A stretch of DNA of 20,000 nucleotides from Psammoneis japonica (lineage: Eukaryota), in the NCBI GenBank assembly GCA_008632985.1, contig QPGO01000083.1:336428-356427 (forward strand), read 5' to 3'. This document shows positions 1-20,000 of the stretch, one piece after another (the stretch's first letter is position 1; every line of letters starts with the position of its first letter). The notes below the pieces were generated by a model. The model was not told the origin of the DNA. It did not search any database and worked only from the letters and a program-made list of their open reading frames with translations. The position numbers were made by a program, and so were the translations under genes.

Positions 1-1
1 T

Positions 2-518
2 GACATGGGGAAGCAGGCGGTTGGCATGCAGGTGGAAGCCATGGCATCCAAGGCGTTGCGATGCTTGGCTCTCGCGTACAAGGAGGAAACGGGAGTCCTT
101 GCCAAGTACAATGGTGAGCGTAATCATGAAGGTCACAAGGCTTTGAGTGACACGGCGGGATATGCCGACATTGAATCCGACTTGGTCTTTTGTGGTTTGG
201 TTGGTATGCTGGACCCGCCGAGACCCGAGATTGCTCCCATGATTGAAGTTTGTCACACGGCCAATATTCGGGTCATTATGATTACGGGTGACAACAAGCT
301 TACGGCTGAATCGATTTGCCGTATGGTGGGAATCTTTGGAGAGTCGGAATCCTTGGATGATGTTTCCTTTACAGGCGGAGAATTCTTTAGCATGCCTGAA
401 GCCAAGCAGCAAAAGATTCTATCCGGCGGTGGACTGGTGTTTTCGCGCACCGAACCCAAGCACAAGCAGCAGCTAGTGCGACTCCTGAAACGTCATGGTG
501 ATATTGTTGCAATGACGG
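2..518 (+). CDS. SERCA: P2A-type (SERCA/ECA-like) Ca2+-transporting ATPase, internal exon (gene starts upstream of the window)
   Basis: Motifs ALRCLALAYK, GMLDPPR, VIMITGDNKLTA, FSRTEPKHK, VAMTG. Donor G|GTAAGC at 518/519. Confidence 0.95.
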
Positions 519-1575
<1,057 letters not shown>

Positions 1576-2332
1576 ATGTGGATTCAACACTGTTGGGGAC
1601 CATAACTGGAAGATGATTGTGCTAGCAATTCACATGCATGTTTCTGTTGGTGTAGTTTTTAGATTGTTTTTAACCTGAGGGAGGAAATCATTTGGACGTC
1701 TGCCATTGTATTCCACGACCTGTTTGATACATTTCTAGCCTTTCTCAGTCTTCCACCAAGATTGCACTTCGTTAAGCCGCATTTTGGATATGGGTTCGAT
1801 GAAGGTTCAGAGAGATTGCCTCTTACCGTACGCCCGTAGTTGTACAGAAGGCTGCGCTCTAGCTAGTTGCGTGCTCACCACGAACCTGAACGTGCGCGAC
1901 CAACTAGCCCTACCCCGGCTAACTCACAAGTAAATATTTTTTGTTAAAATACAAACATATCAAAAAAAACGAGTGAGATAGTGAAACAAAAGATCAATAC
2001 GATTGGATTGCAACAGAGAGCGAAAATGAGTATCGAATCGTGGTGTAAATGCAAAATCCATTTTTCATCTTACAATTGGCCGTTTACCTTTCAACACAAG
2101 CAATGTATCTTCATTCTATATGACTAGTAGATAGCGTTGGTATTGTTGAAAGGATTGGAAATAGTCTAAAAAGCCGCTCCGATTCTCATGGTGTGTGGTG
2201 TTTTGAGTTTGGAGGTATGATGCGCACACGTGACTGATGAGTCCCGTCTAACATGACAGCGCGAAAGCTCAGTGCAGCAGTGATGATGTACCGGTACGAA
2301 TTTTTGTACTATGTACAACATGTGCCTGTACG

Positions 2333-2337
2333 TCTTA
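2333..2337. repeat. 5-bp target site duplication, left copy (TCTTA)
   Basis: TCTTA directly precedes the LTR at 2338 and recurs directly after the other LTR at 9607-9611. Confidence 0.95.
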
Positions 2338-2613
2338 TGATAGAAATTGAAGGCAAATGGCAAGAATTCAAACAATAACTCCTTGCTGCTGTCTAAATAG
2401 CAGATGAGTCTCCGCTCAGAGACCGTCACAGGAGCCGAAGGACGTGCAAGTCGGCATAATCGGGCTACTGTCATTATTCTTGTGAGCCTTGTGGCTCGAA
2501 AGCAAACCACATCGCGCGTGAACGCGCGGAACTAAAGCACACAAAACTGTGCACGGTAAACTAAACAGCGCGCGATGCTTCGCGCGCACCTAAATCCTGT
2601 TCAAATCCTGTCA
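2338..2613 (-). repeat. 3' LTR (276 bp)
   Basis: TGATAGAAAT...ATCCTGTCA. 265/276 identical to 9331-9606 by hand alignment, no indels. Confidence 0.97.
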
Positions 2614-2619
2614 CTCCCC
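2614..2619 (-). other. Polypurine tract (GGGGAG) abutting the 3' LTR
   Basis: Minus strand reads AAACTGGGGAG|TGACAGG, directly upstream of the 3' LTR start. Confidence 0.8.
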
Positions 2620-2948
2620 AGTTTGCTTGAGGAGCCACAGAAACAGATTCGACTTCGGATGGAATGAAGTTCCAGAACATGAGGGGGCGGAGAAGGTCCC
2701 AGATTTGGGAGTGACCCCAATGCTTGCTGAGAATGTCAGCAGGGTTGCGGGAGCCTTCGATGAAGTGGAACTCAAGGTGACCAGAGGCAATTGCCTCACG
2801 CACACGGTGGAATGACAGTGCGGTGTGTCGCTTGTGTAACTTGGAGTGCGGGATGGTGGCACTGTCTGCAACCGACTTGTTGTCACCGAACATGTGACCA
2901 ACGTTGCGGATCGGGACGCCAAGGCAGCGCAGGGTGATGCGCAGGTCG

Positions 2949-3271
2949 ACAATCTGCTCAACACAAGTCCTTGCGGCAACAAATTCAGACCCGCAGGTCG
3001 CAGTCTCCACGGTGGCTTGTTTCTCAGAGAACCAATCAGCCGGGAATTTGTTGAGGAAGTGGAGCATTCCCATGACAGAGCGTCCGGTGAGCATGCAATG
3101 GCACAAGAAAAAACAATCTGCTCAACACAAGTCCTTGCGGCAACAAATTCAGACCCGCAGGTCGCAGTCTCCACGGTGGCTTGTTTCTTAGAGAACCAAT
3201 CAGCCGGGAATTTGTTGAGGAAGTGGAGCATTCCCATGACAGAGCGTCCGGTGAGCATGCAATGGTGCAAG
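2949..3271. repeat. Tandem duplication of 159 bp (2949-3107 and 3113-3271) with an AAAAA spacer
   Basis: The copies differ at 3 positions (3025/3189, 3102-3103/3266-3267). The net +164 bp shifts the RNase H frame. Confidence 0.95.
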
Positions 3272-4587
3272 TTTGCATCGACGTAGTGGGTGGCAGTGAC
3301 GAACTTGCCAAGGGGCGGTGGAGCGTCCTTCGGGATCATCTCTTCTGCTTCACCACACACGGAATGCATCCATTCATGGGCCGGAGCAGGGAGATCCGAA
3401 TGGTCGGGCTCTTCCGTGCGAACGCGGAGAGCACCGTGTCGCATCTTGGAGAGGCACCCACAGACGCGCTTGGCACGATCCAAGTGGCCTTGACGGGGCG
3501 CAGCTCGGAAGCTAGAGAGTGACATGACGGCCGTGGCAATGTCAATTCGACCAAGGGACACTGCCCATTGGAGTGAACCAACAAGAGACTGGAACTTGTG
3601 GATGCCATCGGGTCCCAGCAGTTCGGAAGTGTCCAGTTCGGGGTGGTCACCCTTCTCTAGAGGTGACAGGGCGTTGGTGGCAGGTTTCTCCCCAAACAGT
3701 CGGGCACAGCTGTCGACCATGCGCTCGATGTACTTGCGCGGAGACAGGCACAAGGTTCCGTCGGGTTCCCGGGAAAAGTCGCAACCCAGATGGAACTCAA
3801 TGGGTCCCGCACCCTTGAGCTTGAACTTGTGCTTTTCCGTGAGGGTGTCGACGAAAGATTGAGGGTCCTTCATGGCAATGGCGAGGTCATCCACATAAAC
3901 GGCAATGCATTCACAGTGGTCGCCGTTCCTGCACATCCAAATGTGGGGTTCGGCGCGGCAGGGGAAGAAGCCTTCAGCTCGCAGGCAGTCGGCGAAGCGC
4001 TCGTGCCAGCGGAGACCGGAGCTGCGCAGTCCATGCAGTGCCTTGTGGATGACAAGGATGTGTCCTTCGAGTTTGCCGAACTCGGGTCCAGCTGCAATGT
4101 AAAGCTTCTCCTTGGTGGTGGCTTCAAGGTGGGCATTGCCAATGTCGGTGGCCCATGTCTCCAACTCGTTGAGTTCGGCCAGGAAAATCATCAGCCGAAG
4201 GCCACGGAGGGAGACTGCTCCGGAGTGGACACTGTCGACAGGCACGTCCGTGAGGTGCCCGTCGGCTACGAGTCGTGCCTTGTGGCGACCGTCGTGTTTC
4301 ACGTCGCACACCAGGTGCACTTGGATCTTCTTGTGTCCCGCAGGAGGAGTGGAAGACTTGAAGGGCCCGCAGTCATGGAAGACTTCGTACTCGTCGAGTT
4401 GGTCCATCTCGAGATTAGTTGCGTCTCCCCACTTGCGGTTGCCGTTGCGTTCGTCCAGTGACATGGCATGTTTGCAGTTCCGGGGAACTTCGTGTCCACA
4501 CTTGCAGCGAGGTGCAGTGCGGAAGGAGCGAAGCTTGGCTTGGTTGGCCATGCGAAATGGCTTCTTTTGGCGCCTCGCGATGGTGCG

Positions 4588-4797
4588 GAACCGCTTCCAG
4601 CCATCCGTGTCGAGGAGTCCGTTCTCTCGTGCATAGATGGCACAGGTGACGGGGTCGTCCTTGGCGATGATGGCAAGAGGCTCGGACGTGATCTCCCCAC
4701 TTTCCCATTCAAGCATGATGTTGTAGCTGGAGCCTTTCCAGGTTGGGTCGTGAGGCTTCAGAGGTCCTTCGTGTGACACGATGCGTCGAAATTTCCA
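4588..4797 (-). other. Chromodomain-like module at the integrase C-terminus
   Basis: WKFRRIVSHEG...SSYNIMLEWESGEITSEPL...YARENGLLDTDGWKRF fits the chromo/chromoshadow pattern. Such modules are reported for diatom CoDi copia elements. Confidence 0.65.
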
Positions 4798-7700
4798 AAC
4801 AGTGGTGTCTTCGTCTTCTTGCTCAATGTGATTCATGATGTCATTGCAGGCAAGGACTTCCTCGCATTCGTCATTGTTGACAGAGCAGACGAACTTAGTG
4901 AGCTCGGGATTGCCGTTCACTTTCCATTCGTGGTCTTCGACGGCCTTGACGATGCGAGCTCTGTGGCGTTGTCCGTCCTCTTGTGGCTGCATGAGGAAGG
5001 CACGTCCAATGATGTCTTGCGGATCGAAAACTGGCATCTTGGGTGTCCTGATCTCCCCATCAGGAGAGTCGACGGGGTTGTCGTCATGGCGAGATTTGAT
5101 GATGGGTTCAGGTGGCTCCCCATCAGGAGGATCAAGACGCAGGTTTCGGACGGCAGGATCGGGGGTGGCGGAGCGGACGTTGGACCGGCAGAGGATCTTC
5201 TGATTCTCATCAGATAGAATCTTGAAGGTCATCTGGTGGCCGACGTGCTCAGCAATGCCAACGAAGCGTCCACGCAACTCACGGGATTCGGACGGCCAAT
5301 CGGAGTCATCGAGGTGGAAGCACACGGGTTCCCACCAGTGAAAGCGAAGCAATGGGCTGATGTCCGGGGTGGAGCCAGTGAGAGTCTCAAGGGGCATGTG
5401 CCAGTGGAGACGTGGGGACGCTGCATGGTTGAGCATGAAGCACACGCACATGAGCGCCAGCAGCCATGCATGGGCGGGCGAACCAAAACGATCCATGACA
5501 GTGTTCGCCATGCGCTTCACGGTCTGGTGTCGACGCTCGGCAAAGTTTTGGTGTTGCTGGTGAGGCTCACTTTGCCAGCTAGAGATGAAGAGGGCGCGCA
5601 GGATCCCGAGCACTTTGTTGCTGATCTCAACTTGAGCACGGTCGCTAATGAGTTTGGATGGGGCACCACGTTCACGGATCTGATCCTCGAGTGTGTTGAC
5701 AAACTCTTTGTCCGTCTCAGTGCCGCAGACGTCAGTGACGGTAGACTCGGTGCCAACAAACAGTTGGGCGCTGGTGCAACCAGAGTCGACGGCCGGGGTG
5801 TCGGCACAAACGGTGTCAGTGGCGACAGGCTCGTTGCGGCGGTGCACATTAAGGGCGGGGTTGGGTGATTTGTGGGCCTTGCGAAGGTGTGCACCGGCGG
5901 GCATGCGGGCGCACTGCGTGGTGCAGTCAAAAGTACGACGGACCGCATCGGCAGGTGGGAAGCCAAAGCAAGGCCGAAGAGACTCGAAGGGGGGGTCCTT
6001 GGGCTGTACAGTGCGCTCCGGAGGTGGAACATCATCGCCCTGGGGGCCAATCGCATGCAGATGACACTCGTAGAACACGTCGTCGTTCGGAATGAGGTGA
6101 TCATCGAGGGCGGACGCGTGATCGGCAGACAAGGAAGCGGACATGATGGTCTCGTTGACAACGACACGATGACGGCAGTTGCCGCATTCGTCAAATAGGT
6201 TGGCAGTGGGATCGTCCTGCAGGTCAGAGATCGCGTCGCACCACTGGTCGTCGTCAGTGACAGAGTGATCGAGGACGGAAGGGTCCCATGTGTCATCACC
6301 GGTGAGGATGACATGGGGCAGGGTGTCCCATTCGGCGTCAGTGCAAGGTCGCATGGCAACACAAGGCAGGCCAGCCTTGATGTCAATGGGGATGACACAG
6401 CCATCAGGAGTGGCAACACGTTGCAAGCCGTTGGGCACCTTGACAGAGCGATCGTTGACATCCTGTTTGTGCCATTCGAGCTGGCCGCAGGAATGGATGG
6501 TCTTGCCCTTGCCCGTGCATGCGCACTGATGGAGTGTGGCGATGACGGGACCACGCTGGGTCTCAATGACGGCACCAGCGGTGACAATGGGGATGTCCAC
6601 CAATTGATGATCGTCAATGCCCTGAACGTCGACTTGGCGAGAGGTGCGTGCAATGACGCGAACGTCGTCGCCAGCAATGCCGCCGTTGGCCCCACGATCG
6701 ACTAGAGCGCCAGTGCGTGTGGAGCGATGAGCAGAAGCAGAGTGAATGACATTGTGGTTGTTGACGCGGCGGCAAGTGCGACCGTCAAGTTCCATGTCAT
6801 CTGCAGAAGCTGGTGGGGTAGAGGAAGCGGCGGATGGCCCCGGTCGACTGGCATTGGGGGCTTGGTTAGGAGACAACAGACGTTGCAGATCACCGGGTGG
6901 CAGTGGCTTGCACTTGGTGAGGTGCGCCAGGATGGGATCATCCGAAGTGGCGTCCACATGTGGAGCGGAGTCACCAGAGTCAGCAGGAGTCGTGTTGGAC
7001 AAGTTGACATCACCGTCACTCCCAAGGCGTTGGTCATGAAGGTTGGCCGTAACAGACTCATGGCAGTTGCTGGCTCGCGGGTTGCAGGGAGGTGGACGAG
7101 AATGCTCAAGGATGATCGCCTTGGAGGAATCGGGCAACGAATCCCAGAGCCGTTGGTGGTCGGGAGGGAGACGTCTCCATTGGACACCGGCGAGGCTGGG
7201 ACCGCGGGTGCAGGCAGCATTGGCTTGAAGGACGTCAACGTTGCTGTCAATGTCGTAGAACACATCGTCGGACGGTTCCTCGGAGTGGACGTCGTGTGCG
7301 TGTGTGGCGCATCGGGGAGCTCGAGGTGTCGTCTTGGGTTGAAATGTGCTGTCGCACTGAGCTGCGGCGGAGAGGAGCAAGCCACAGTGTTGATCGCATG
7401 TGAGGCTCTTGCCACTCTGTGTACGATGCTGATCAGCTTGGTTCTTGACAGCACGGAGTTCCTCGACAGGGTGCACGGCATTCTCGAGCATGACGCGCTT
7501 CTGTCCTTCAGAGAAGTGGTCACTGGCCGGGATGAGTGCCTCGCACTTGCGCAACTGATCTTGCCAATGAAGGATGAACCCGTGGGTCAGACCTTTCCAA
7601 GTGCCATCACCAAGACACGCGGTGGTGAGGCACGTGAGCAGGGTGGAGGACTCGACAGATGCGCGGGTGGAGGCAAGCGCGTGCTCAGACAAGGAGCGGC

Positions 7701-8464
7701 AGACGGTCTGTGCGTCAGAAGACCCCACATTTTCGCGAATGAGAGCCTTGCCCTTGTCGGTGAGAAGGATGCGTTCGAAGACGGCGAACATGCACTTTTG
7801 CTGTTCAGCAAAGAGCAGTTTGTCTTCGGGGCTGGTCGGTTTGTACGACGAGTCTAGAATGCACTTGACGTCTTGGGCACGGGCTTGTGCCACAAGTGAG
7901 GTGTGCCAAGTGTGCCACTGCTTGTCAGATTTGAGAGCCGTGAAAGTGGGATCACGCTTGATGCCTCGCTTGAAGTCCCGCACCGGGTCGCGTGCCTTGG
8001 TCGAGTTGGTGACATGTGGAGGTGCAAGGGGTGAGCTGCCGATGGACACAGAAGACATGTGGTCGGGGCTGAGGCGGCAGGCAAGGAACTCGTCATGCGT
8101 GAACAAAGAGGAGTCGTTGGCAACGTCAAGACCTTTGTGTGCTTTGACAATGTACAGACTGACTGGTGCTGCTAACATGTTCTCATAACCACGGGGCAAA
8201 GGGATTGCATTGGCGCCGTTGTCGCACTCAAGCGAGTCGATTTGGGACGGCATGAATGTGAACAGTTCCTGATGCGAGTCTGTGCCGTCTTGGGCCAAAG
8301 CCAAACGAAGAGGACTCCCAGCACCTTGGGCAAGCACGGTTCCAACCACGTGCTCGAAACCATCGGTTTGTTGCTGACGAGTGAGAACCATGGTGGACAA
8401 AGGTGGTGTCAGGACAATCAATTCTGGTTGGGAAGCGAAGGTAGACTCGAAACTTGGGTGAGAG

Positions 8465-8496
8465 TGGACTTGACTTGAAATGGACTTGACTTGAAA
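8465..8496. repeat. 2 x 16-bp tandem repeat TGGACTTGACTTGAAA in the retrotransposon 5' leader
   Basis: Exact copies at 8465-8480 and 8481-8496, followed by a further CTTGAA unit. Confidence 0.85.
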
Positions 8497-9315
8497 TCTT
8501 GAACTGTCTTAAAATCAGAAGTCGCCGGGCTTTGTTGTCCCGTTCGTTGTCAAGTGCTAAACTTCCCATCCGGTCCGTAGAGTTGTGCCGGCACGTCCGA
8601 ACCCGCAGCTGGTGGCGCTTTGGGTTGCTTGCGAGTGGAGCAGCGGGTTGCAAACCCCTGCAGGCAAGCTGACTGGAGGTGGACAAGACCCCCGAACCGT
8701 TCTCATTTTGTGTCGGTTGGATTTCCCGATCAGGCTGGCCAGTTGACGCAGGCGTTGGGCGCTGTGGACGAACGAACAAACGCGGGAAAGCACCCTCGCC
8801 CCAACGCAGGCTGCAATCACGGCCACCTGCTCTCACAGTCGTCCTCGTGGACCTGGCAGAACTGTAGAGCACCAGCAGTCCGGGGCAGATCAGGTGCAAT
8901 GGACTCGGTGTGCTTGTAGAGTGGCAGCAAAACCGCAGTCCGAAGAGTGGACAAAGGTTCTTGGCCGTGAAGACATGTACACACACACATGTCTTCAGCG
9001 ACTAAGATCCTTGAACATGTGGGGTTCTTGACCGTTAACCGAGGAACAGGTATATCAAGGGATGTTGATCAAGGATAGACTTGGATATGACCGTTGAATG
9101 TAAGTCTTCAGCGATCAAAGGTAGTGCAATCAATCCAGATGTCCAGCGGCAAGGAGACTTGACGGTGACGTTAACTTCCTGCCGATGCCCTGGTGTTGAA
9201 TGCGCGTAGACTTGCCGATGTATGTAGAACACATACGGAGGTCCACGTAGAATTGAAATAGCGTCGTTGGTAAATCAACGACGACGATGGCGGTTGCTCA
9301 ATGGGTTGACAATGA

Positions 9316-9330
9316 GCAAGACTGTTAATC
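9316..9330 (-). other. Putative primer binding site complementary to a tRNA-Asn(GTT) anticodon arm
   Basis: Directly after the 5' LTR the element reads GATTAACAGTCTTGC, with no TGG. Its complement GCAAGA-CT-GTT-AA-TC has the form of a tRNA-Asn anticodon stem-loop. Confidence 0.6.
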
Positions 9331-9606
9331 TGATAGAAATTGAAGGCAAATGGCAAGAATTCAAACAACAACTCCTTACTGCTGTCTAAATGGCAGATGA
9401 GTCTCCGCTCAGAGACCGTTGCAGGAGCCGAAGGACGTGTAAGTCGGTGTGATCGGGCTACTGTCATCATTCTTGTGAGCCTTGTGGCTCGAAAGCAAAC
9501 TACATCGCGCGTGAACGCGCGGAACTAAAGCACACAAAACTGTGCACGGTAAACTAAACAGCGCGCGATGCTTCGCGCGCACCTAAATCCTGTTCAAATC
9601 CTGTCA
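9331..9606 (-). repeat. 5' LTR (276 bp)
   Basis: Direct repeat of 2338-2613 with TG..CA ends. Confidence 0.97.
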
Positions 9607-9611
9607 TCTTA
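9607..9611. repeat. 5-bp target site duplication, right copy (TCTTA)
   Basis: Matches 2333-2337. Confidence 0.95.
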
Positions 9612-12600
9612 CGTGCTCTGGTGGCACTTTGACAGCGACTCCCTCCAACACTGACGTGCTGAGTTTCTCACAAAAAAACACACACAAGCAACCATGAGCA
9701 GCCCTGTGAATGCTGCAAGCAGCTTGGTGTCTCCCATGTGGTGTGGCTGGGCTTGTCCATTCTTCGAAGCACAGCAGCTGTGTTTGCCATGTGACAAGCA
9801 TCCGGTCGGTTGCTGTTTCGACTTTAAACTGTGGTGTCTGACAGGCATTGTTCTTGAACAGTGAATTAAACAGCTGTCAAATTGTCCCTGTCACCCTTTG
9901 TGGGCACTGGGGAATGTGGGTCTGCTGCTGTGGGGTCGGTCCTGATCAACTTTTCTGCCGCACTCAACCGGTGCACTGGAAATGTGGGTCAGCTGGCGCC
10001 GGCACAGCCAACAACAGCTCAGTGGAACTTAAAACACAGATTTGGTTTTTCTTTAATTGACAATCTGTGCACATTGTCAGGAGTTGTGTGTGTCCACCCC
10101 ACTGAGAAACTGTCATCGAACAGGTTGATGGGCATGCAAAGATGACCGGCAGACACTTCAACAGTGTCGCCCCATTGCTTCAGCTTGACCTTGCTCTGTT
10201 GTTGACATGGATTTGTTTTCTTGTGCAGAGCTTTCATCCTGCCATCATCCATGGGCAGTCAACACATGAGATCAATGGAAAACACAGAGAACGTCCCTGC
10301 CAAGCAGAGATTCGCTGGTGTGGTGCTGCAGATGATGGTTTGGCAGTGAGCGCAACAGGTTTGTGGAGCTGTTGGAACAAGCAAGAGCCAGAAAAGTTGT
10401 AGGTTGATGTTGGTGAGATGGTGCTTCATGAAGACTGGCCTCAGAAACTCCAAGAGGAGCACAACAAATGCGCTGGAAATGCCAGCCAGCTGTGCAACAA
10501 CCCCCAGCTGTGTCCCCAGAGAGTGCACTTGACTGTTTTCAGTCAGCCCGGCTTTTCCATTGCATCGTTCTGAGATGCTTGAATGTGGAGCTTGAACCGC
10601 TGGGTTGTCCTCAGAAAAATGCTTCTGATCCAGCATTCGTTGATGGCTTGCATTGTTGCCATGTGTTTCATGATGAGGTCCAAGACCCAAGTTGACATTT
10701 CTCAATGCTTCCTTGTGGCACATCTCTGAGCTTCCTCTTCCACATTCAGAGCTCAATGGAGCTGCATTTCTGAAACTCCCTGAGTTGCACCATGCCAGCA
10801 CTGCTGAGTTCCTGCAATCCAGCAACATTTGTCCATCGCAGCAGGCTTGGGAATGTTTCTCTCTTCACCCCAATGATGGTGCTGGATGCAGAGCACACAG
10901 CAGTGGTGTGCGCATTGGCTGAAACCAGCAGTGCATGAAGCACAACAGCTTTCAATCACTCCTCCCACAATGCGTCCAAGATTGTGCCCATCTTTTGCAG
11001 AGGTGGTTGGCTGAGTCGTTTTTTTCTGCCAAACATCTTTTTTTTTTGCTGGTGGCCTTGCTGCTGAGAATGGTGGGCAGATGATGCACAAAGCGGCAGC
11101 CACGCTAACTCAACAAGCACGACTTAGTTTCAGCACTGCAAATTCGCCGTTAAAATGCCGTGGCTGGAAACTGCAGAAACCAACACACCATGGCGACTCT
11201 ACGGTCGCTGTTTCCTCAACGGCATCACCTTCAAGAGCCACAACAAAGAACAACATTTCACATCTCGTGAACTTGTGTGTGGCAGAATTGACACATGCAA
11301 GTGCAATGGGCTCATTGTTGACTCATGCAGTCAAAAAACGATGGGAAAAAAATTGAACATTTTTCAGCTGTTTTCACTGCGATCAATCAACATCAAAGCA
11401 CAGCAAGGCACACACATGTGAAATGAATTGCACGACATTGATGTGTGTCAGTGTTGTGGTGAGTTCATGGCTGTTGATGGAGTGCATTGCATTCGCGGTC
11501 GCCATTGTCGTTGCGTTTCAACAAGTCGTGGAAAATTTGAAATCCAGAACATTTGTGTGTGCAGGCATGTTGTCACTTGTGGGATTTAAACATTGGACAT
11601 TGCTCTGTGCACAGAGCATTTGCATTTTTCACTTGTTGCAATCTCATGTGTGCACAAGGTGTTGGCATTGATTGCCCAATGTGACACACATCAATGTCCA
11701 AATGTAAACATCAGACTTGCCGCCAGCAAAAAAAAAGGTGGGGGTGGTTGTTGGCTTGACTTGCAACACCATAAAAACAAGGCACCGATGGAGTTCTTTT
11801 CACTCCCCTTTCTCCACCCTCTCTTTCTGATTCTTGTTCATTGTTGCCAATTGTTTGAATGGCATGCAAAGTTTTGTCTTGTCATCTGAGAATGCAATCG
11901 CGTGAAGCTTCAATTTTTCAGTCCAGAGCCCATTGGAGGGCCCTCCCGATGGTCTTCTGGCACTTGCTTTCACCAATGTAGCCATGGCACTTGTGAACAA
12001 AAGAATCAGCAAGTTCAGGGCTTTCAATTGCAATGACTTCAAACTTGGCAAGAAACTTCCCCTGGAGCAAAGGTCACAGCACATTTTCAGCTCGCATTTC
12101 ACAACTTCTCGTGCTCTCTTTTCTCTGAAAGAAATCCACAGTCATGAGATTCTCAAGTGGTTCGTGAATTTTCACTCGCGGGTCTCCAGCATCAATGGCA
12201 AAGAAGGAACCAGATGTTCCTTTGTCCCGGTTGAAACCTTGGACGAGATGAGGTGCCTCTGCCTCAAGAGAGACAAAGCCTTTTGAAGGGCTCCAGTCCT
12301 GGGTGGGACTCTGTGTGCGGTGTGTGACATTTGGCATTTGGCGGGCCCACAGAATTCTGCGTGCGAGCTCCGCAACAAATTTGTCAAGCAATGAAAATGT
12401 AAATGATGACAGAAACATCCTTGCCACAACCGCCCCGCTCAAATCTGAATCTCTGTCATGCCAGTCTCTAGCTAGAGCAGAAGTGCTGTGGCATGTGCAA
12501 TGCATGTGCGTTGTCAAACAGCTGCAATGGCCACCGCGACTGTCAACATTCTCAAGCAGCAGGGGAAGAAAGTGAAGTTTGGCAAAGTCGATGATGACGA

Positions 12601-14720
12601 CATTGATTTTGGGTGCAAAGAGAAGAAATCGCGGCGGCGTTGGAATGTCATCAAAGATGAAAAGGTGAGTCAACAGACTGATTGTAGATTGTCGACAAAG
12701 TGCAGTGTTGTTCATCCTCTTGACTCGCCTGGTTTTGTTTTCTTTTTCTTTTTTTTTTCCGTCGTTGCCTTGTCTGCGCTGCACCAGGAGAAGAAAAAGA
12801 AGATGAGTCACGGTGCGCACACTGTCAACTCTGCTGACGCTCCTTCCACCGCTCTTTGGATTTTTCGTTTTTGCAGCTCCTTTGTGTTTCTCTTGAATGC
12901 TTTTTCTCATCTGTTTTTTTTTTTCCCACAAACAGAGCAACACGTTCTCTGTGTGCAGCTTGATGATCCGGCGAATGCCAACGTGCTTTCACAGTGGTCC
13001 AATCTTAGCGTTTTTGAAACAATTGCAAATCTTTTTTTCCGAGAAGCTGGTGTCCCCAATGCGAGTGCCAACAGTTTGCAAGGCAACCTTGATTCGTTGC
13101 GCACTGTCCCATTTGGAAGCTTGAGTGCAAATGCTCTCAAACATTTGCAAGTTTTGATGGACATTGTGAAGAGGAGGGCCGGCTGGTCCACAGCGAAACT
13201 TGTGATGCCAACCAATTCTCCGAACAATCGTCCCAAACCTGGCGGTTGTGGCAGAGCCGGCAGCAGTGGCGGACTCGGAAGCAAGGCTTGCATTGTTGGG
13301 GAACAACAAAAGAAATGTGCAGTTGTTGAATTTGTCGCCAAGGAAAATCCTTTTGAGCGGAAATCACTTTTCTGCAACAACAGCTGTGCTCACTTCTGTC
13401 ATTGGGGGGAGATTCGTTGCCATGGTGGAGATGAGTTGTGGGGTTGGCAGTGCGAGAAGATGACATGATGCTGCACTGCACATCTCTCTCCCCCATGTTG
13501 AACACGGCAATTGTTGCACAATTTGTATGAAGTGTCCAAGCTAGATGCAAGAAAATGGGGTAGACAACGCAAAGACAATTGACAGCATGCAGTGGCAGAC
13601 AATGGTGAGCTCAAAACAAATGACACAAGTTCAAGCAGTTGCAGTTGCCTGAATGTCTGGGGAAATCGGACTCCAAAATGCAACTACAAAGGAGATTGGT
13701 GATGCAAACAATCTGCCGAGCATTGTCCTGGACTTTCTTTCTGCTTTCATTGAAAAAGAAAAGAAAAATGCAAAAGATTTGTCTGCTTTGAATGGGATTC
13801 ACCGTTTTGGTGGGAATCAAGATTTGGCTCATTCTTTTTGGATGGTCTGCTGTGAGATCATCAACATCTAAGAGATGGACAGACAAGTTTGCGCTGCACT
13901 TTTTGTTGCTGCAGCTGCGGGTTTGACATTGAGATGAGGTTTGTGAGATGACAGCCATTGCCACAACTGCTGAAACAATCAGCACGAACCTGCTTGGTGC
14001 AAATGACAAACATTGGAGAACTGGCAGAGGCAGTCTCTTTTTTTTTTCAGTTGGCAAGAACATGCTTGGACCGGCTGTGTGTGGGGTGGAATGCTCTTGC
14101 ATGGTCACCATGCAAAAGTGAATGACGTTCCTTGCCATGCAGTTGGCTCAAGAGTGAATTTCAAACATTGCAGTGGGTGTGGTTGCAGAGCAAGACCATG
14201 AATGTCCATGAGCAAGAAACCACCACAAACACATGTGACAGCTCTTTCTGCATGACAAAACATTCAAAAAGTTGCCCTGCTCCAGCTGCATTTTCATGCA
14301 AAGCAAGATTGTGCTTCAACAATGTGCCCAAAGCAATGGGAGCCGAGCGTGGGATTTTGGTGGGTGCCTTGGCCAGCTGAGTCGGCACTGTGCCAAAGCG
14401 TGTGTGCAATGCCACACCTTTTCACTGTGCTTTGCTTTCAGAAAAGTGGGGCACCAGCAGAAGAAACAAGCCATGGCATTGAGCTGAGTGTAGAAATGAA
14501 GATGCGTTGGCTCAAGCTGCGAGCTGGATGTTCTTTGGGGGGTTCCCCCGCTCCCCCGCCCCTGTTGGTTTTCGCTCTTGAGCCTCTTCAGATGCTCCTC
14601 TATCCTTGCATTCTGTGGCACAAAAGGTTCATCACCAAGTGAGTCAAAACAGCAGTTTATGACTGCAAACAGCGGATTTTTGGCCACTGAGTTGGCAACC
14701 AATTGGTGAAAAAGGGTTTC
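9612..14720. other. Degenerate block depleted of both TpA and CpG, probably relics of repeats or pseudogenes of unknown family
   Basis: No TA seen between 10402 and 11105; about 9 CG in 10441-11040; strong TG/CA excess; Cys/His-rich ORFs in all frames; no recognisable domain. Confidence 0.75.
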
Positions 14721-14928
14721 CGACCGCGACCCAAAAGATCAGGATGTGGCCACGGTCAGACGGGAGGATCACACGAGGCGCACACGCACGAGAACACTTC
14801 GACACGGCACCTTCGATCTTTCGGATCGCCCATTGTCTTTATCTTGAGTCCAAACTGTTATTGCTCCACTGTCCTTGGCGCTAATGAGCCTAATTTCAGG
14901 CTACCAGATGAAGGAAAATCTTTATCGC

Positions 14929-15849
14929 ATGTTGAAGTACCGGAGTGCTCTTTTTCTTTTTGCATTCCTCCTGTTCACAGCGACTTCCTCGTCGCCGTTT
15001 CCTGCTGGTGTTTTTCGCAACCTCGCTCGAGGATCGGCACTAAAATGCATGGGAGATTTATGCGGGGGCTTACCTTTTGAGGTTTGGAAATCATCGGTAG
15101 TCATGGAGCATATTCGTGCCAGCGATGTGGGAAGAAAGGCCCAGGGAGATTTGGCCGTGTTGAGACAATTGCTTCAAGAACGAGGTCCAAGAGCCCTGTG
15201 GTCGGGATGTTCGGCAAGAATGGTGGAGGGCTTCTTTAGTGGCGCAGTACTGCTTGCGGGGAAGGAAACGATTCGGAAAACGCTTTGCGCGTCTCCGGTT
15301 ATTACAAGCCGGGTGTCGCCTGCGCTGATTGGTTTTGTGGCTGGTGCCGGCGGAGGCGCAGCTCAAGCAATAGTCATGGCCCCTTGCTCACTACTAGTCA
15401 CAGCCACAACGGCTAATGGTGGCTCTGTACTAGAAGCAGCAAAAGACGTTTGGTCTCGTCACGGATTGCGGGGTATCTACCGTGGGTCTCCAGCCGTGGC
15501 TGCTCGACAAGCTACAAATTGGGCGTCTCGTCAAGGCTTCACAGAGATGGTGCGTCCCCGAATTGGTGTTGCTGGAATTGGCGGTGAGATTCTTGCGGGA
15601 TGTCTTGGAGGGACATTGTCTTCATGGAATACGCCCTTTGAGATTGCAAGGATAGAGACACAGTCACGCACGTTTGCCAATCACAAAAACAGTCAAGACA
15701 AGCACCACATGAATCTGTTTCAATCGATGCAGTACGTGGCGAAGGAACGAGGAGTTGGAGAACTATACACTGGGCTATTTCCGAGGATATGTCAATCCTG
15801 CTACCAGACTGTGTTTCTAGTTTGCATTCCTCGTATTTTGGATTCATGA
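14929..15849 (+). CDS. Mitochondrial carrier family (SLC25) protein, Yhm2 citrate/oxoglutarate carrier-like, with a hydrophobic N-terminal extension
   Basis: Three-repeat layout with PFEVWK and PFEIAR signatures. GIYRG...RQATNWASRQGF and WNTPFEIARIETQS resemble yeast Yhm2. Alternative in-frame ATGs at 14884 and 14908. Confidence 0.85.
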   Translation: MLKYRSALFLFAFLLFTATSSSPFPAGVFRNLARGSALKCMGDLCGGLPFEVWKSSVVMEHIRASDVGRKAQGDLAVLRQLLQERGPRALWSGCSARMVEGFFSGAVLLAGKETIRKTLCASPVITSRVSPALIGFVAGAGGGAAQAIVMAPCSLLVTATTANGGSVLEAAKDVWSRHGLRGIYRGSPAVAARQATNWASRQGFTEMVRPRIGVAGIGGEILAGCLGGTLSSWNTPFEIARIETQSRTFANHKNSQDKHHMNLFQSMQYVAKERGVGELYTGLFPRICQSCYQTVFLVCIPRILDS

Positions 15850-16048
15850 GGTGAACATCTCGACATGATTAGACCAGAGACCACCTCGTGACAGCAATGT
15901 CGGTGTTTTCTTTTGAGAAACCTCACATCCTTGAATTTCTATTTCCGTTTTTATTTATGCAGGTTTCTCTAGTCTTTCTCTTTTTCTCCTCATCTTTCTG
16001 CAAGCGAGAAGTGTGGCGTCGTTTTGCTTGGTTTCGGCGGATTTTGGT

Positions 16049-16175
16049 TTTCCCGCCGTTGTGCTTTCGCGCGCATTCGCGCGACGGCCTTGCCGTCGAA
16101 CGTGACGTAGGATCAGTACTCACTACGACGTAAGTAGAACCTACGACATGTCTCAGTACATTCGAAAATTCAAAA
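16049..16175 (+). promoter_or_regulatory. Candidate E2F sites (TTTCCCGC 16049-16056, TTTCGCGC 16065-16072) and CHR-like motifs (TTCGAA, TTCAAA at ~16161-16174)
   Basis: Exact matches to TTTSSCGC about 240-260 bp upstream of the ATG at 16308. Function is inferred from the consensus only. Confidence 0.35.
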
Positions 16176-16307
16176 ATCCCGCGGCGGCGGCGGCGGAAGC
16201 TCATTTCGCTCGCTCCATCGAAACACTCTCGACGTTGATGACTCTGCCGTCGCTGCCGTTGCATATCAAACGACGCCTTCCTATATCGACTCAGCAAGTG
16301 ATTGATA

Positions 16308-17174
16308 ATGTCGGGCTTTGCTAGGAACTCGCTATTATTTCACGGAGGCTTCGGCGGAAAGCGAAAGAAGAATCGGAACGACGGGTCATCGCGGAAGAAT
16401 CGTGGTGTTGGTGGCGGAAGCAACAAATCTGCAAATCCGATTCAAACGCCTCTTCGATCGAATGTAGTGCATACCTTCAACGGCAATGTCCACCCGGACG
16501 ATACGGCAAACGGAAAGCAACTCCTCGCGTCAGAGACGGACGCAACCAGGCATGTACAGTCGGTCCCGCCTCCCCCGTACACTCACGTACAAAACCCACG
16601 CATGACGTCACATCATGAGCCCGACTTTGACAATGGCTGCCTGTCACAGCTCACCATGTCGCAATTCAGCAACGGATCCCAAGATTATTCATCCCGATCG
16701 TCCTCGTCGCAGCCGAGTGGGTCGTACCAGCATAATATCCATTCCGTGAGTTCCAACTGCAGCACCGCCGCGGAAAGTCAAGGCTCGTATCCAAACAACC
16801 ATTTTGCTACGAACCGATCACCTCCTCCTACCAACGGTGTGGGGAACTCTTGGAGCAAGCCACGGAGCAGCGGTGGCTCGGTCGGAGGACAGTCTCGAGT
16901 GTTTCCTGGACAAGGTTTGAATCCGAGCCAAAATAGCGTCGGTCCACCAAGTCGCTGGAATTTTGCACAAGCGAGCCGCAGTCTCCAACCAGCTGCTACT
17001 CCGGCACGACGATCCATTCATAGCATCGCTGCGACGCCACGAGTATGGATGAAGAATCTGCTCAAGCCGCCCTTTCGTGTCTCGCTGCGTTCCCACGAAG
17101 CGAGCCAAACGGACGCGCCAAGAGTCGTCGACAAGACTCCTCCGACTGAGGCTCGTGATGATGAAGCCACAAAG
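16308..17174 (+). CDS. Uncharacterised protein, exon 1 (disordered, Ser/Pro/Gln-rich, SQ cluster)
   Basis: Long ORF with normal dinucleotide composition. Donor AAG|GTATGT at 17174/17175, phase 0. Confidence 0.7.
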
Positions 17175-17278
17175 GTATGTCTTCGTATAAGCTGTCGCTG
17201 TCCAAGCAAATACTCGTCGTCATATCTGAAGTGAATAACCATTGAGTCTACTTTCTTCTCTCACTTGTGAACAAGCAG
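17175..17278 (+). other. Spliceosomal intron (104 nt, or 101 nt with the upstream AAG acceptor)
   Basis: GTATGT...CTTTCTTCTCTCAC...AAGCAG. Either AG keeps the two flanking ORFs in frame. Confidence 0.7.
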
Positions 17279-18892: not shown

Positions 18893-19601
18893 ATGTCGCC
18901 GGACCAAACGCATCTGGTGTTTCATGGCTATTACGCAGCCATGCATTTACTGTGAGAATCAGTCATATGTGGAGAGTAGTCCTATAACGTAGAGATCTCG
19001 TTGTACACGGAGTGATCTAGATTGTAAAATAGGATCCAAAACTACCTGGGTAACATACTGCTGTACTTAGTGCCGGGACATGACACCACACTATGGCATG
19101 TCCTCGGAAGAAAGACATGAGTTGGAGTTGGAAGCTATGACCCGAAAACGTCGGTCTTGGGAACGTGCGGAGACGAAATTATGAGTTTGTGCCTCGAGTA
19201 TGAAGATGACGGTACGAGCGCAGAAACAAAACTACATAATGGAAATGATTCTGCAAGCTCAAGGATATGAAAGCGATGGCAAGAGGGGGAAATCATTGGA
19301 TCAGTTCTTTACTTCCACGAGAGGACAGTGGCAGTCCACTATGAGCAGCTTCGAAAGAGATTGATGCAGGAAAATGATGGAAAAGAATCAGAACGAGAGC
19401 GATGATGAAAAGAAGAATACAGTGGGGATTGATAAATGCTTCTTAAACTTTTGTTGTTTTGGTTTGAATCTACACATTTCCCTTGCGGCACAACTTCAGC
19501 GAAAGATGATCAATAATGAATTGGTAAATTACTTAGGTATGGTACGTTCCTATTCATGTTATATGCCTTCTACTGTGTATCTTCTCGCGTCCTTTCTATT
19601 T

Positions 19602-20000
19602 TCACTTTTTCCTTGGCTTTTCTCGAAGGCGCATGCCCGCTTTATGCCATGCATCGTCAATGTGCATAACGTAATAGACACCTTCAACATTCGGTGCCTT
19701 GGCAAGGAACCGCCCTCCATATCCATGAACCTTTTCCACAAGTTTGCGACTGCAAGCTTCCTTTTTCTTTTTGTCCTTGTGCGGAATTGCCTGGTACTCT
19801 TCCCTGAATTGTGCCACCACTGATTGAAGGGTCTTATTGCCTGTATGGTTGATGACAGCTCCGCCTCGCCCCGGAAGGACATCAAGCTCGCCAACGTCTT
19901 TCTCCTCAACAAACGTGCGGACAGAATTTTTTTTCGTACTAATGTTCTTTGTTGGAACGTTCCTGGAAGACTTGTGAGGGATCTTCTCGGTCCTTTTTAC
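19602..20000 (-). CDS. DUF6824-domain protein, 3' part (5' end beyond the window)
   Basis: The frame is open from 20000: ELDVLPGRGGAVINHTGNKTLQSVVAQFREEY...SRKLVEKVHGYGGRFL...AWHKAGMRLRE. This fits the diatom-expanded DVLxGRG..N.H.GN...GGRFL pattern. Confidence 0.8.
   Translation of the reverse strand, partial: VKRTEKIPHKSSRNVPTKNISTKKNSVRTFVEEKDVGELDVLPGRGGAVINHTGNKTLQSVVAQFREEYQAIPHKDKKKKEACSRKLVEKVHGYGGRFLAKAPNVEGVYYVMHIDDAWHKAGMRLREKPRKK

What the first reader, a model, noticed from the sequence alone, without database searches (positions are those of the whole stretch)
2338..9606. All 11 LTR-LTR mismatches fall at TpA-derived sites, so mutation happened after integration
LTRs are identical at insertion. 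Mismatches (left/right): 2376T/9369C, 2385G/9378A, 2399A/9392G, 2427-28CA/9420-21TG, 2447C/9440T, 2455-56CA/9448-49TG, 2458A/9451G, 2475T/9468C, 2508C/9501T. Seven sites are TA versus CA or TG. Two are CA versus TG, consistent with an ancestral TA hit on opposite strands (CG is also formally possible). There are no transversions, indels or CG-versus-TG/CA differences, although the LTR is CpG-rich. Inference: the element is young, the process is much faster than background mutation, it is not RT error or RNA editing, and standard LTR dating (4% divergence) would overestimate age.
Basis: partly seen in the sequence, partly recalled or inferred. Interest (0 to 1): 0.85.

Follow-up and report, generated by a model that had tools for sequence, protein, structure and literature searches.

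The report
TpA-specific hypermutation of a Copia retrotransposon
A dead jumping gene in a protist genome has been peppered, after it inserted, with one kind of DNA change only (TA turned into CA or TG), a signature first reported in 2026 in one alga and seen here in what looks like a different organism.

Summary
The LTRs (2338-2613, 9331-9606; 276 bp, TG..CA, 5-bp target duplication TCTTA) differ at 11 bases in 9 sites. All are transitions: seven TA vs CA/TG and two CA vs TG. None of the 20 CpGs differs; chance is about 2e-6.

The direction TA->CA/TG is supported independently:
- Interior TpA O/E is 0.19, against 0.55-0.6 in host genes.
- Of 38 tyrosines conserved in 60 relatives, this copy keeps 7; 19 are Cys (TGY) and 8 His (CAY).
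- The reverse, RIP-like step explains 0 of 80 protein differences.
- A 164-bp tandem duplication shows the same mismatch types.

The family is very high-copy, and its copies differ mainly by transitions. I could not determine the family state at the nine LTR sites. Majority consensus would mislead in any case.

This is not new in kind. A 2026 preprint (10.64898/2026.01.13.699255) measured TpA-only A/T->G/C hypermutation of integrated viral DNA in Bigelowiella natans. This window looks like a second instance, in an LTR retrotransposon and probably another host. It adds LTR-pair evidence, strand-coherent tracts and a flanking-base preference. The enzyme is unknown.

The parts
2333..2337 (.). Target-site duplication TCTTA (left)
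   Evidence: Read directly. The same 5 bases follow the right LTR at 9607-9611.
2338..2613 (-). 3' LTR in element orientation: 276 bp, TG..CA, 11 TpA, 20 CpG
2376..2508 (.). Span holding all 9 mismatch sites of the left LTR (partners 9369-9501). The 7 TpA shared by both LTRs lie at 2341, 2394, 2466, 2533, 2557, 2562 and 2591, and 6 of the 7 are in CTA/TAG context.
2614..2624 (-). Purine-rich run (AAACTGGGGAG on the element strand) abutting the 3' LTR: polypurine-tract-like. It fixes the orientation.
   Evidence: Read from the alignment. The function is inferred.
2611..8421 (-). Open frame of 1936 aa, a gag-pol-like polyprotein. It is open, but 27 of 38 conserved tyrosines are replaced by Cys or His. 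TA->CA/TG cannot create stop codons, so openness is no sign of function.
3709..4344 (-). Reverse transcriptase domain (Pfam RVT_2, aa 1360-1571, E = 7e-24)
2949..3271 (-). Tandem duplication (159-nt units 2949-3107 and 3113-3271, period 164) that shifts the frame at the C-terminal end of pol. The units differ at 3 bases in 2 sites: 3025 C / 3189 T (CA vs TA) and 3102-03 CA / 3266-67 TG.
2614..9000 (-). TpA-depleted interior: 41 TpA in 6387 bp, TpA/ApT 0.15, GC 0.57
9001..9330 (-). Leader next to the 5' LTR with near-normal TpA (17 TpA in 330 bp, TpA/ApT 0.65)
9331..9606 (-). 5' LTR in element orientation: 276 bp, 10 TpA, 20 CpG
9607..9611 (.). Target-site duplication TCTTA (right)
9607..14800 (.). 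A second block, unrelated to the element, into whose edge the element inserted. TpA O/E is 0.05-0.16 per kb and CpG O/E 0.23-0.67, with a CA/TG excess and no Pfam match. It is partly repeated in the genome.

Best explanation
The feature is one insertion of a Ty1/Copia-type LTR retrotransposon on the minus strand, from a very high-copy family. Its protein is dead. After integration, its DNA was hit by a hypermutation process that changes only T:A to C:G, and only at 5'-TA-3' (TpA becomes CpA or TpG, depending on the strand). The process spares the neighbouring host genes. It acts in tracts in which one strand is hit repeatedly. It prefers TpA flanked by A/T (ATA/TAT) and tends to spare CTA/TAG. 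This is the same signature that a mutation-accumulation experiment measured directly in integrated viral DNA of Bigelowiella natans (preprint 10.64898/2026.01.13.699255). Shown here: the LTR pair and target duplication, the mismatch contexts, the direction in the coding part, and the restriction to selfish DNA within this window. Inferred: the direction at the nine LTR sites and action on chromosomal DNA. The agent is also inferred. The preprint's own hypothesis is a TadA/ADAT-type polynucleotide adenosine deaminase, whose natural substrate A34 always follows U33. How the agent is guided to selfish DNA is unknown. It need not sense repeats, because the B. natans target is single-copy.
For: - LTR pair: 9 of 9 sites are of the TA type, with p about 2e-6.
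- A second internal pair, the tandem duplication, has 2 of 2 sites of the same type, one of them CA vs TG.
- Direction from composition: Tyr is 0.66% of the protein, against 3.79 +/- 0.30% in 90 full-length relatives. Cys is 3.50% against 0.94 +/- 0.17%.
- Direction from conserved tyrosines: of 38 Tyr columns conserved in 60 relatives, 7 are kept, 19 are TGY and 8 are CAY.
- Direction from all protein differences: 36 of 80 differences at conserved columns are explained by one TA->CA/TG step. The reverse step explains 0 of 80 and CpG decay explains 6 of 80.
- TpA O/E is 0.11-0.20 per kb in the interior, against 0.53-0.59 in flanking host DNA. It is 0.32-0.79 in 17 of 17 related Copia loci from other sources.
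- Both strands are hit in each LTR. In element sense, the 5' LTR has 4 CA and 2 TG, and the 3' LTR has 4 TG and 1 CA.
- Strand-coherent tracts: 36 inferred events fall in 9 runs, p = 0.015.
- In the LTRs, 6 of 7 surviving TpA are in CTA/TAG context, against 2 of 9 mutated ones (Fisher p = 0.04). Surviving interior TpA show the same bias. Their 5' neighbour is A in 6%, against 27% in host DNA.
- Family data: 13,852 contigs laid. Places by kind of change are A>G 183, T>C 183, C>T 186 and G>A 168, against 14-27 for each transversion.
- At 4 of 6 interior CA/TG double sites, TA must be present in at least 12-22% of the depth.
- Both LTRs share G at 2440/9433, where 99% of family depth has A.
- The preprint reports 230 of 231 mutations in its two hypermutable regions as A->G or T->C, all of these on TpA. 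The rate is about 6e-7, against a baseline of 3.5e-10.
Against: - The family state at the nine LTR sites could not be tabulated. The read-laying table was truncated, with 838 rows not shown.
- The few glimpses do not show TA. One other copy reads CA at sites 5, 6 and 7 and TG at site 2 (loose ends at 9452 and 9374). Plain parsimony at sites 2 and 5 would therefore make TA the derived state. Parallel hits are expected under saturation, but this is not proof.
- The LTRs (TpA O/E 0.6) and the leader 9001-9330 are far less depleted than the interior (0.19). A simple uniform post-integration process does not explain this. Part of the interior load may predate this insertion.
- Sense-strand A->G outnumbers T->C: 19 vs 8 at Tyr (p = 0.05) and 27 vs 9 overall (p = 0.004, though detection differs by codon position). 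This leaves room for an RNA-level contribution.
- The shared rare G at 9433 excludes only typical family members as gene-conversion donors, not members of the same small subfamily.
- No genome is held. The enzyme, the genome-wide pattern and the host identity are therefore untested.
- The best DNA run may be the sample the assembly was made from, so it is not independent support.
Confidence: 0.75

Rival explanations
1. RNA editing plus gene conversion. An ADAR- or ADAT-type enzyme edits U-A sites in retrotransposon RNA, and reverse transcription fixes the changes in new copies. The LTR-LTR differences were imported later by gene conversion from other, differently edited copies of this very abundant family.
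For: Sense-strand A->G is in excess (19 Tyr->Cys vs 8 Tyr->His; 27 vs 9 overall). The family is very high-copy, so donors abound. The LTR and leader are less depleted than the interior.
Against: Editing of the genomic RNA gives only sense A->G. Yet 8 of 27 Tyr changes, 9 of 36 inferred events and 5 of 11 LTR changes are sense T->C. Both LTRs keep a rare shared G at 2440/9433, 7-13 bp from mismatch sites on either side, where 99% of family depth has A. A conversion tract from a typical donor would have erased it. About 18 of the 40 family differences I could read from the output's best-supported rows are not of the TA type, so 9 of 9 by import is unlikely. In B. natans the same signature arises in single-copy chromosomal DNA during clonal growth.
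Confidence: 0.1
2. The same DNA-level process with a different chemistry. Thymine in TpA is modified (5-hydroxymethyl- or formyl-uracil, or base-J-like, made by a JBP/TET-type dioxygenase) and miscoded as C. Adenine is not deaminated.
For: TpA is its own complement, so T->C on one strand cannot be told from A->G on the other. From recall, with no call: base J in trypanosome telomeres and 5hmU in dinoflagellates sit at T followed by A.
Against: Nothing in the sequence speaks for modification. No such mutagenic pathway is documented in the papers I searched. The preprint's authors favour adenosine deamination and found an ADAT2-like candidate.
Confidence: 0.12
3. RIP-like cytosine mutation. CA and TG are ancestral and TA is the product (C->T at CpA), as in fungal repeat-induced point mutation.
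For: Seven of the nine LTR sites taken alone are the classic RIP pair (TA vs CA/TG). At sites 2 and 5 another copy shares the non-TA state.
Against: TpA is depleted, not enriched. TpA/ApT is 0.15 in the interior, whereas RIP is called at 0.89 or more (threshold as quoted in PMC7884421). The RIP-direction step explains 0 of 80 protein differences. Conserved Tyr codons became Cys/His codons. The ORF has no stops, although RIP makes TAA and TAG. The CA-vs-TG sites would need two steps each.
Confidence: 0.02
4. Artefact. Base modification in silenced DNA makes the sequencer miscall TA as CA/TG, so the 'mutations' are assembly errors.
For: Systematic miscalls at modified bases are known for some long-read platforms (recall). 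The only DNA runs found come from a single sample and study and may be the assembly's own data.
Against: Contigs of run X1 hold 71% of the sampled 31-letter words of window 1-10000. Single-copy parts have depths near 60, and pieces identical to the window were laid (for example 13064-13664 with 0 other letters). The changes are stable enough to define alternative contigs. They replace 71% of conserved tyrosines coherently.
Confidence: 0.03

Closest known systems
TpA-specific hypermutation of integrated NCLDV and virophage DNA in Bigelowiella natans (Mettrop et al., bioRxiv 10.64898/2026.01.13.699255, 2026). I read the abstract, Introduction, Results, Discussion and the Methods section 'Dinucleotide analysis'. 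The supplements are closed.
   Same: Changes are almost exclusively A/T->G/C transitions, all at TpA (TpA->TpG or CpA). They are confined to integrated foreign or selfish DNA while host genes stay normal. The long-term trace is TpA depletion with CpA+TpG gain. TpA-depleted CDS there are enriched in reverse-transcriptase and DDE domains.
   Different: There it was measured as de novo mutations in clonal lines, in single-copy viral inserts. Here it is read from an LTR pair, a tandem duplication and protein comparison in a very high-copy LTR retrotransposon. The preprint's text mentions LTRs or retrotransposons 0 times. The host here looks different. Its SERCA matches best at 81%, to an unnamed protein, and at 75-79% to oomycetes. 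Its genes carry few introns. Depletion here is deeper (TpA O/E 0.05-0.20, against Rho 0.45 for their NCLDV region).
Repeat-induced point mutation (RIP) of Neurospora and other fungi
   Same: A host process riddles integrated selfish DNA with one kind of transition in one dinucleotide context. It works on both strands, in strand-coherent tracts, hits many sites per copy, and leaves a dinucleotide skew.
   Different: The direction and base are opposite (C:G->T:A at CpA, raising TpA and lowering GC). RIP creates stop codons, and this process cannot. RIP needs duplicated sequence, whereas the B. natans target is single-copy and part of the depleted block here has single-copy depth.
ADAR-type A-to-I hyperediting of retroelement or viral RNA, and fungal ADAT2/3-dependent mRNA editing with U at -1 (recalled knowledge; the ADAR 5'-U preference is also stated in the preprint's Discussion)
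   Same: A->G transitions come in clusters, with a preference for U/T before the edited A.
   Different: RNA editing fixed by retrotransposition gives sense-strand changes only and identical LTRs. Here both strands are hit and the LTRs differ. TAG, with G after the A (by recall a context ADARs favour), is among the best-surviving contexts here.
APOBEC3 editing of retroelement cDNA, and CpG methylation decay in transposons
   Same: Context-specific deamination inflates the divergence of LTR elements and misleads LTR dating.
   Different: These act on cytosine, not on A:T pairs, and in GG/GA or CpG contexts. Here 0 of 20 LTR CpGs differ. The one-type-per-LTR pattern expected from cDNA editing is not seen.

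Membership tests
TpA hypermutation of integrated foreign DNA (B. natans type) | Almost exclusively A/T->G/C transitions | tested here: met
   11 of 11 LTR mismatches and 3 of 3 tandem-duplication mismatches are transitions. The direction is shown in the coding part: 27 of 38 conserved Tyr became Cys/His, and one forward step explains 36 of 80 differences against 0 of 80 for the reverse. The direction at the LTR sites themselves is inferred.
TpA hypermutation of integrated foreign DNA (B. natans type) | Every change falls on a TpA (TpA->TpG or CpA) | tested here: met
   9 of 9 LTR sites and 2 of 2 tandem-duplication sites are TA vs CA/TG or CA vs TG; p = 1.7e-6.
TpA hypermutation of integrated foreign DNA (B. 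natans type) | Confined to integrated foreign or selfish DNA; host genes normal | tested here: met
   TpA O/E is 0.11-0.20 (element interior) and 0.05-0.16 (block 10001-15000), against 0.53-0.59 in 1-3000 and 15001-17000 and 0.41-0.59 in 17001-20000. This covers one 20-kb window only.
TpA hypermutation of integrated foreign DNA (B. natans type) | [quoted passage not shown] | tested here: inconclusive
   11 of the 12 windows from 3001 to 15000 pass the TpA cut-off. Only 5 also pass the CpA+TpG cut-off, and never 3 in a row. The cut-offs are 5% tails of the B. natans genome, not of this one.
TpA hypermutation of integrated foreign DNA (B. natans type) | Rate orders of magnitude above background | tested here: met
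   There are 11 changes at the 64 bases of the 16 inferred TpA x 2 LTRs, against 0 at the other 488 bases. The factor itself cannot be measured here.
TpA hypermutation of integrated foreign DNA (B. natans type) | Heritable change of chromosomal DNA arising during growth of clonal lines | not testable with these tools
   Only the LTR logic speaks for DNA-level change. No lines, no pedigree and no genome are held.
TpA hypermutation of integrated foreign DNA (B. natans type) | ADAT2/TadA-like deaminase as agent (a hypothesis in the preprint, not shown there either) | not testable with these tools
   No genome is held for this window.
Fungal RIP | C:G->T:A transitions at CpA (or another CpN) | tested here: not met
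   The RIP-direction step explains 0 of 80 differences. Tyr codons were lost, not gained.
Fungal RIP | [quoted passage not shown] | tested here: not met
   The interior gives 0.15 and 1.32, and the right block 0.10 and 1.83. Thresholds are as quoted in PMC7884421.
Fungal RIP | Triggered by sequence duplication; RID-type methyltransferase; premeiotic | not testable with these tools
   The element is very high-copy. However, 12684-14800 is depleted at near single-copy depth. No genome is held.
ADAR-type RNA hyperediting fixed by retrotransposition | Changes only A->G on the transcribed (sense) strand; LTRs of one insertion identical | tested here: not met
   8 of 27 Tyr changes and 5 of 11 LTR changes are sense T->C, and the LTRs differ at 9 sites.
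Ty1/Copia LTR retrotransposon (the element itself) | LTRs ending TG..CA and a 5-bp target duplication | tested here: met
Ty1/Copia LTR retrotransposon (the element itself) | Copia-type reverse transcriptase (Pfam RVT_2) | tested here: met
   E = 7.3e-24, 85 bits against a cut-off of 31.6. 1378 relatives have E <= 0.001, and all 120 listed carry PF07727.
Ty1/Copia LTR retrotransposon (the element itself) | Integrase upstream of RT; protease, gag, primer-binding site | tested here: inconclusive
   Pfam finds only RVT_2 even at E <= 10. No primer-binding site was recognised. There is a purine run next to the 3' LTR.

The most novel reading that the evidence does not exclude
The TpA-hypermutation pathway just found in one chlorarachniophyte would also operate in a second, distantly related protist, whose host genes look stramenopile. 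There it would be the main killer of a retrotransposon family with very many copies. Its strand-coherent tracts, strict 5'-T requirement and flanking-base preference would point to a processive, single-strand DNA adenine deaminase guided to selfish DNA. That would be a natural counterpart of laboratory adenine base editors and a widespread, GC-raising mirror image of RIP.
Probability: 0.4. Interest if true: 0.85.

Novelty: new member of a known kind. Interest (0 to 1): 0.62.

Why it matters
If the reading holds, three things follow.

1. A genome-defence-like mutator seen so far in one alga, in one preprint, has a second and independent record. This one is in a different kind of selfish DNA (an LTR retrotransposon) and probably in another lineage. 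That makes a broad distribution among protists a testable idea.

2. LTR dating fails badly in such genomes. The naive 4.0% divergence would date this insertion at about 5.8e7 generations using the B. natans background rate. At the TpA rate measured in B. natans, the same 11 changes need only about 4e4 generations. That rate comes from another organism, so this is an illustration only.

3. The process leaves ORFs open, because it cannot make stop codons, and it raises GC. Dead elements therefore pass as intact genes, and Tyr-poor, Cys/His-rich 'proteins' may pollute gene sets.

LTR pairs and tandem duplications also give a cheap way to screen any assembly for this process without mutation-accumulation lines.

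Tried and rejected
- **Family state at the nine LTR sites.** Read laying allows one call, and its table of other letters was cut (838 rows not shown). Only 9433 and a few loose ends fall in the LTR.
- **LTR pattern in metagenome contigs.** A 20-letter LTR pattern gave 120 stretches. BLAST of the element against the 120 stored loci gave no hit, so these are chance matches in unrelated contigs.
- **Same-family proteins.** Two searches, one full-length and one with a 281-aa RT piece, gave nothing above 74% and 69% identity. The family is not in that collection.
- **Other collections.** Viral contigs: 73 pattern matches, 0 relatives. Genome contigs: 17 related Copia loci on contigs binned with bacterial MAGs, used only as composition controls.
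- **L121 repeat as a control.** Its 137-nt repeat is coding sequence of two adjacent copies, not an LTR. Of its 9 mismatches, 2 are TA-type and 3 are transversions. This is a weak control.
- **Hidden repeats.** A purine/pyrimidine-recoded search of the window for direct repeats that differ only by transitions found only the LTRs and the tandem duplication. Inverted repeats were not searched.
- **CA vs TG counts along the element.** Raw counts are uninformative without an unmutated baseline, because the strands differ in G and C content.
- **Block 9607-14850.** A Pfam scan of 20 of its 40 open frames of at least 70 aa gave nothing below E = 0.01.
- **RNA.** No RNA holder was listed among the sequencing runs, so expression and RNA editing could not be examined.
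- **cDNA-editing model (deaminase acting during reverse transcription).** It predicts sense A->G only in the 5' LTR and sense T->C only in the 3' LTR. Observed: 4 CA + 2 TG and 4 TG + 1 CA respectively. Rejected.
- **CpG hub for the two CA/TG sites.** Rejected, p about 0.001.
- **Earlier findings of this scan.** Five look-ups gave nothing on this genome or sequence. The 8 of 41 'TpA' notes that were shown concern phages and bacterial tpa genes.
- **Literature.** Ten full-text searches. Only the B. natans preprint describes this signature. Maumus et al. 2009 on diatom Copia elements (PMC2806351, term search only) has 0 mentions of RIP, dinucleotide or point mutation.

Full report
**What is there.** The window holds two 276-nt direct repeats, 2338-2613 and 9331-9606, at 96% identity. 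They begin TG and end CA. The same five bases, TCTTA, flank them at 2333-2337 and 9607-9611. Between them runs a 1936-aa open frame on the minus strand (2611-8421). Its only Pfam match is the Copia-type reverse transcriptase RVT_2 (E = 7e-24). A purine-rich run abuts the LTR at 2614, so 9331-9606 is the 5' LTR and 2338-2613 the 3' LTR. Relatives at 65-74% identity in the RT region are abundant in environmental assemblies (1378 with E <= 0.001). The element is therefore one insertion of a Ty1/Copia-type LTR retrotransposon.

**The host.** Neighbouring genes are a P-type Ca2+ ATPase (two exons, 8-520 and 598-1572, split by an intron of about 77 bp) and a mitochondrial carrier (14875-15849). The ATPase matches best at 81% to an unnamed protein and at 75-79% to oomycete proteins, with diatoms near 70%. 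The host is thus a protist whose own proteins are not in that collection and which looks stramenopile.

**The observation.** They fall in 9 sites. Seven are TA against CA or TG, and two are CA against TG. There are no transversions and no indels, and none of the 20 CpGs in each LTR differs. A random transition is of this type at 22.8% of LTR positions, so nine independent sites give p = 1.7e-6. None of 200,000 simulations reproduced the pattern.

**Direction.** Taken alone, seven of the nine sites are the classic pair of fungal RIP, in which TA is the product. The interior settles the matter the other way:
- TpA O/E is 0.19 in 2614-9330 (0.11-0.20 per kb), against 0.53-0.59 in the flanking host DNA (1-3000 and 15001-17000; 0.41-0.59 in 17001-20000). 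It is 0.32-0.79 in 17 of 17 related Copia loci from other sources.
- The protein has 0.66% Tyr, against 3.79 +/- 0.30% in 90 full-length relatives. It has 3.50% Cys against 0.94 +/- 0.17%, and 4.75% His against 3.55 +/- 0.34%.
- Among 38 alignment columns where at least 80% of 60 relatives have Tyr, this copy keeps Tyr in 7, has Cys (TGY) in 19 and has His (CAY) in 8. Every other residue type is kept in at least 72% of its columns.
- Of 80 differences at conserved columns, one TA->CA/TG step explains 36. The reverse step explains 0 and CpG decay explains 6.

TA was therefore ancestral, and CA and TG are products. Such changes cannot create stop codons, which explains why a dead copy still has a 1936-aa open frame and why long ORFs litter all six frames here.

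**The two CA/TG sites.** A TA hub needs one step in each LTR. With 16 inferred ancestral TpA (7 shared plus 9 sites), of which 5 were hit in one LTR and 6 in the other, 1.9 double hits are expected and 2 are seen. A CpG hub would need both LTRs to hit the same 2 of 22 CpGs, on opposite strands, while the other 20 stay untouched. The probability of that is about 0.001.

**An independent internal clock.** A tandem duplication (units 2949-3107 and 3113-3271, period 164) shifts the frame near the end of pol. Its units differ at three bases in two sites: CA vs TA (3025/3189) and CA vs TG (3102-03/3266-67). Both sites are again of the TA type.

**The family.** Contigs of four runs from one sample were laid on 3300-15000.
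- Summed word depth over the element is 64,000-124,000 and 317,000 over the LTR, against 49-83 in the bins from 12684 to 15000. The family is therefore very abundant. The tool warns that these sums are not copy numbers.
- Places where other copies differ from this one are A>G 183, T>C 183, C>T 186 and G>A 168, against 14-27 for each transversion.
- I could read only the best-supported rows (838 more are not shown). Six interior sites among them are double differences of the CA/TG kind. At four of these, TA must be present in at least 12-22% of the depth, while CG is not required. Each copy thus seems to carry its own set of hits.
- The nine LTR sites are not in the visible rows. Loose ends show one other copy reading CA at sites 5, 6 and 7 and TG at site 2. 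Site 7 therefore has three states (TA, TG, CA), which needs TA as the hub. At sites 2 and 5, however, the outside copy shares the non-TA state.
In a saturated family the majority state can be a product.

**After integration, and on DNA.** Reverse transcription makes both LTRs from one template, so RNA editing leaves them identical. Editing of cDNA could make them differ, but only by sense A->G in the 5' LTR and sense T->C in the 3' LTR. Observed in element sense: 4 CA + 2 TG in the 5' LTR and 4 TG + 1 CA in the 3' LTR.

Gene conversion from other copies is the remaining route. Two results argue against it:
- Both LTRs share G at 2440/9433, which 99% of family depth does not have. This G sits 7-13 bp from mismatch sites on both sides.
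- About 18 of the 40 family differences I could read are not of the TA type.

Donors from the same small subfamily cannot be excluded.

**Finer anatomy.**
- The 36 inferred events along the ORF fall into 9 runs by strand. One run has 15 consecutive sense TG at aa 633-1316, followed by 5 consecutive CA at aa 1363-1463. Fewer runs than this arise in 1.5% of shuffles. One strand seems to be worked on at a time.
- Sense A->G outnumbers T->C by 19 to 8 at Tyr codons (p = 0.05).
- Surviving TpA are poor in ATA/TAT. Their 5' neighbour is A in 6%, against 27% in host DNA. They are rich in CTA/TAG. In the LTRs, 6 of 7 surviving TpA are in CTA/TAG context, against 2 of 9 mutated ones (p = 0.04).
- Unexplained: the LTRs (O/E 0.6) and the leader 9001-9330 (17 TpA in 330 bp) are much less depleted than the interior. 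Part of the interior load may predate this insertion.

**A second depleted block.** Right of the element, 9607-14800 is even poorer in TpA (27 in 5194 bp; TpA/ApT 0.10). It is also CpG-poor (O/E 0.23-0.67 per kb) and has no Pfam match. Its left part is repeated (depths 200-9,700), but 12684-14800 has near single-copy depth. Copy number alone may therefore not be the trigger.

**Comparison with what is known.** Ten full-text searches found one paper with this signature, Mettrop et al. 2026 (bioRxiv 10.64898/2026.01.13.699255). In mutation-accumulation lines of Bigelowiella natans:
- 231 of 302 nuclear point mutations fell in an integrated giant-virus region and a virophage region.
- 230 of those 231 were A->G or T->C, and all of these fell on TpA.
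- The rate was about 6e-7 per site per generation, against 3.5e-10 elsewhere.
- The giant-virus region is single-copy.
- TpA-depleted CDS were enriched in reverse-transcriptase and DDE domains.
- An ADAT2-like deaminase was proposed as the agent.

The window shows the same signature. The fungal RIP indices are failed outright (TpA/ApT 0.15; (CpA+TpG)/(ApC+GpT) 1.32). The preprint's B. natans cut-offs are met for TpA in 11 of the 12 one-kb windows from 3001 to 15000, and for both measures in 5.

**Age.** With 0 differences at 244 non-TpA bases per LTR, true background divergence is below 1.2% (95% bound), against the naive 4.0%. As an illustration only, borrowing the rates of another organism: the 11 hits would need about 4e4 generations at the B. 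natans TpA rate. The naive LTR clock gives about 5.8e7 generations.

**Verdict.** The phenomenon is real but no longer new in kind. This is a second record of it, in a retrotransposon and probably in another lineage. It adds LTR-pair evidence, strand tracts and a flanking-base preference. The enzyme and the targeting rule remain inferred.

Noticed in passing
window 9607-14800: A block unrelated to the Copia element is even more TpA-depleted (O/E 0.05-0.16 per kb) and also CpG-depleted (0.23-0.67), with CA/TG up to 1.9. It has no Pfam match in the 20 frames scanned. The Copia element sits exactly at its left edge, and the DNA left of the element has normal TpA.
   Followed up: partly
window 12829-13664: Two versions of this stretch were laid at equal depth (about 38 each). 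One is identical to the window. The other has 63 differences in 601 bases (and 29 differences plus 8 gaps in 250). These may be diverged alleles or a two-copy repeat inside the depleted block. I could not see the kinds of difference.
   Followed up: no
window 12293-12683: There is a depth spike (9,710, against about 80-500 in the two bins either side), with skipped repeats at 12722-12764. A short high-copy repeat seems embedded in the depleted block.
   Followed up: no
window 9001-9330 and both LTRs: The leader and the LTRs keep near-normal TpA (TpA/ApT 0.65-0.77), while the rest of the element is at 0.15. This is unexplained. Possible causes are earlier hits inherited by the interior, recombination during reverse transcription, or uneven targeting.
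   Followed up: partly
window 2949-3271: A 164-bp-period tandem duplication shifts the pol frame. The frame stays open for about 160 more codons, because the sequence is almost free of TAA and TAG.
   Followed up: yes
window 3601, 3844, 4078, 4081, 4390, 5068, 8402, 9433: At eight places, 90% or more of family depth has A or T where this copy has G or C, outside a TpA context. These may mark a subfamily or be further A:T->G:C changes. The direction is unknown.
   Followed up: no
window 8-1572 (+): This is the C-terminal part of a SERCA-type Ca2+ ATPase in two exons (8-520 and 598-1572), with a GT..AG intron of about 77 bp. It matches best at 81% to an unnamed protein and at 75-79% to oomycete proteins, so the host species is not in the protein collection.
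   Followed up: partly
window 16001-17400: This stretch is CpG-rich (O/E 1.36 in 16001-17000; 28 CpG in 16001-16200 against 15 expected). It overlaps ORFs 16302-17234 and 17267-18892, which have no Pfam match.
   Followed up: no
L121 (7200 bases), 1-137 and 7027-7163: A contig binned with a bacterial MAG carries a related Copia element. Its ends repeat a gag-like coding piece, so there are two adjacent copies or a circular assembly. Of the 9 mismatches, only 2 are of the TA type and 3 are transversions.
   Followed up: yes
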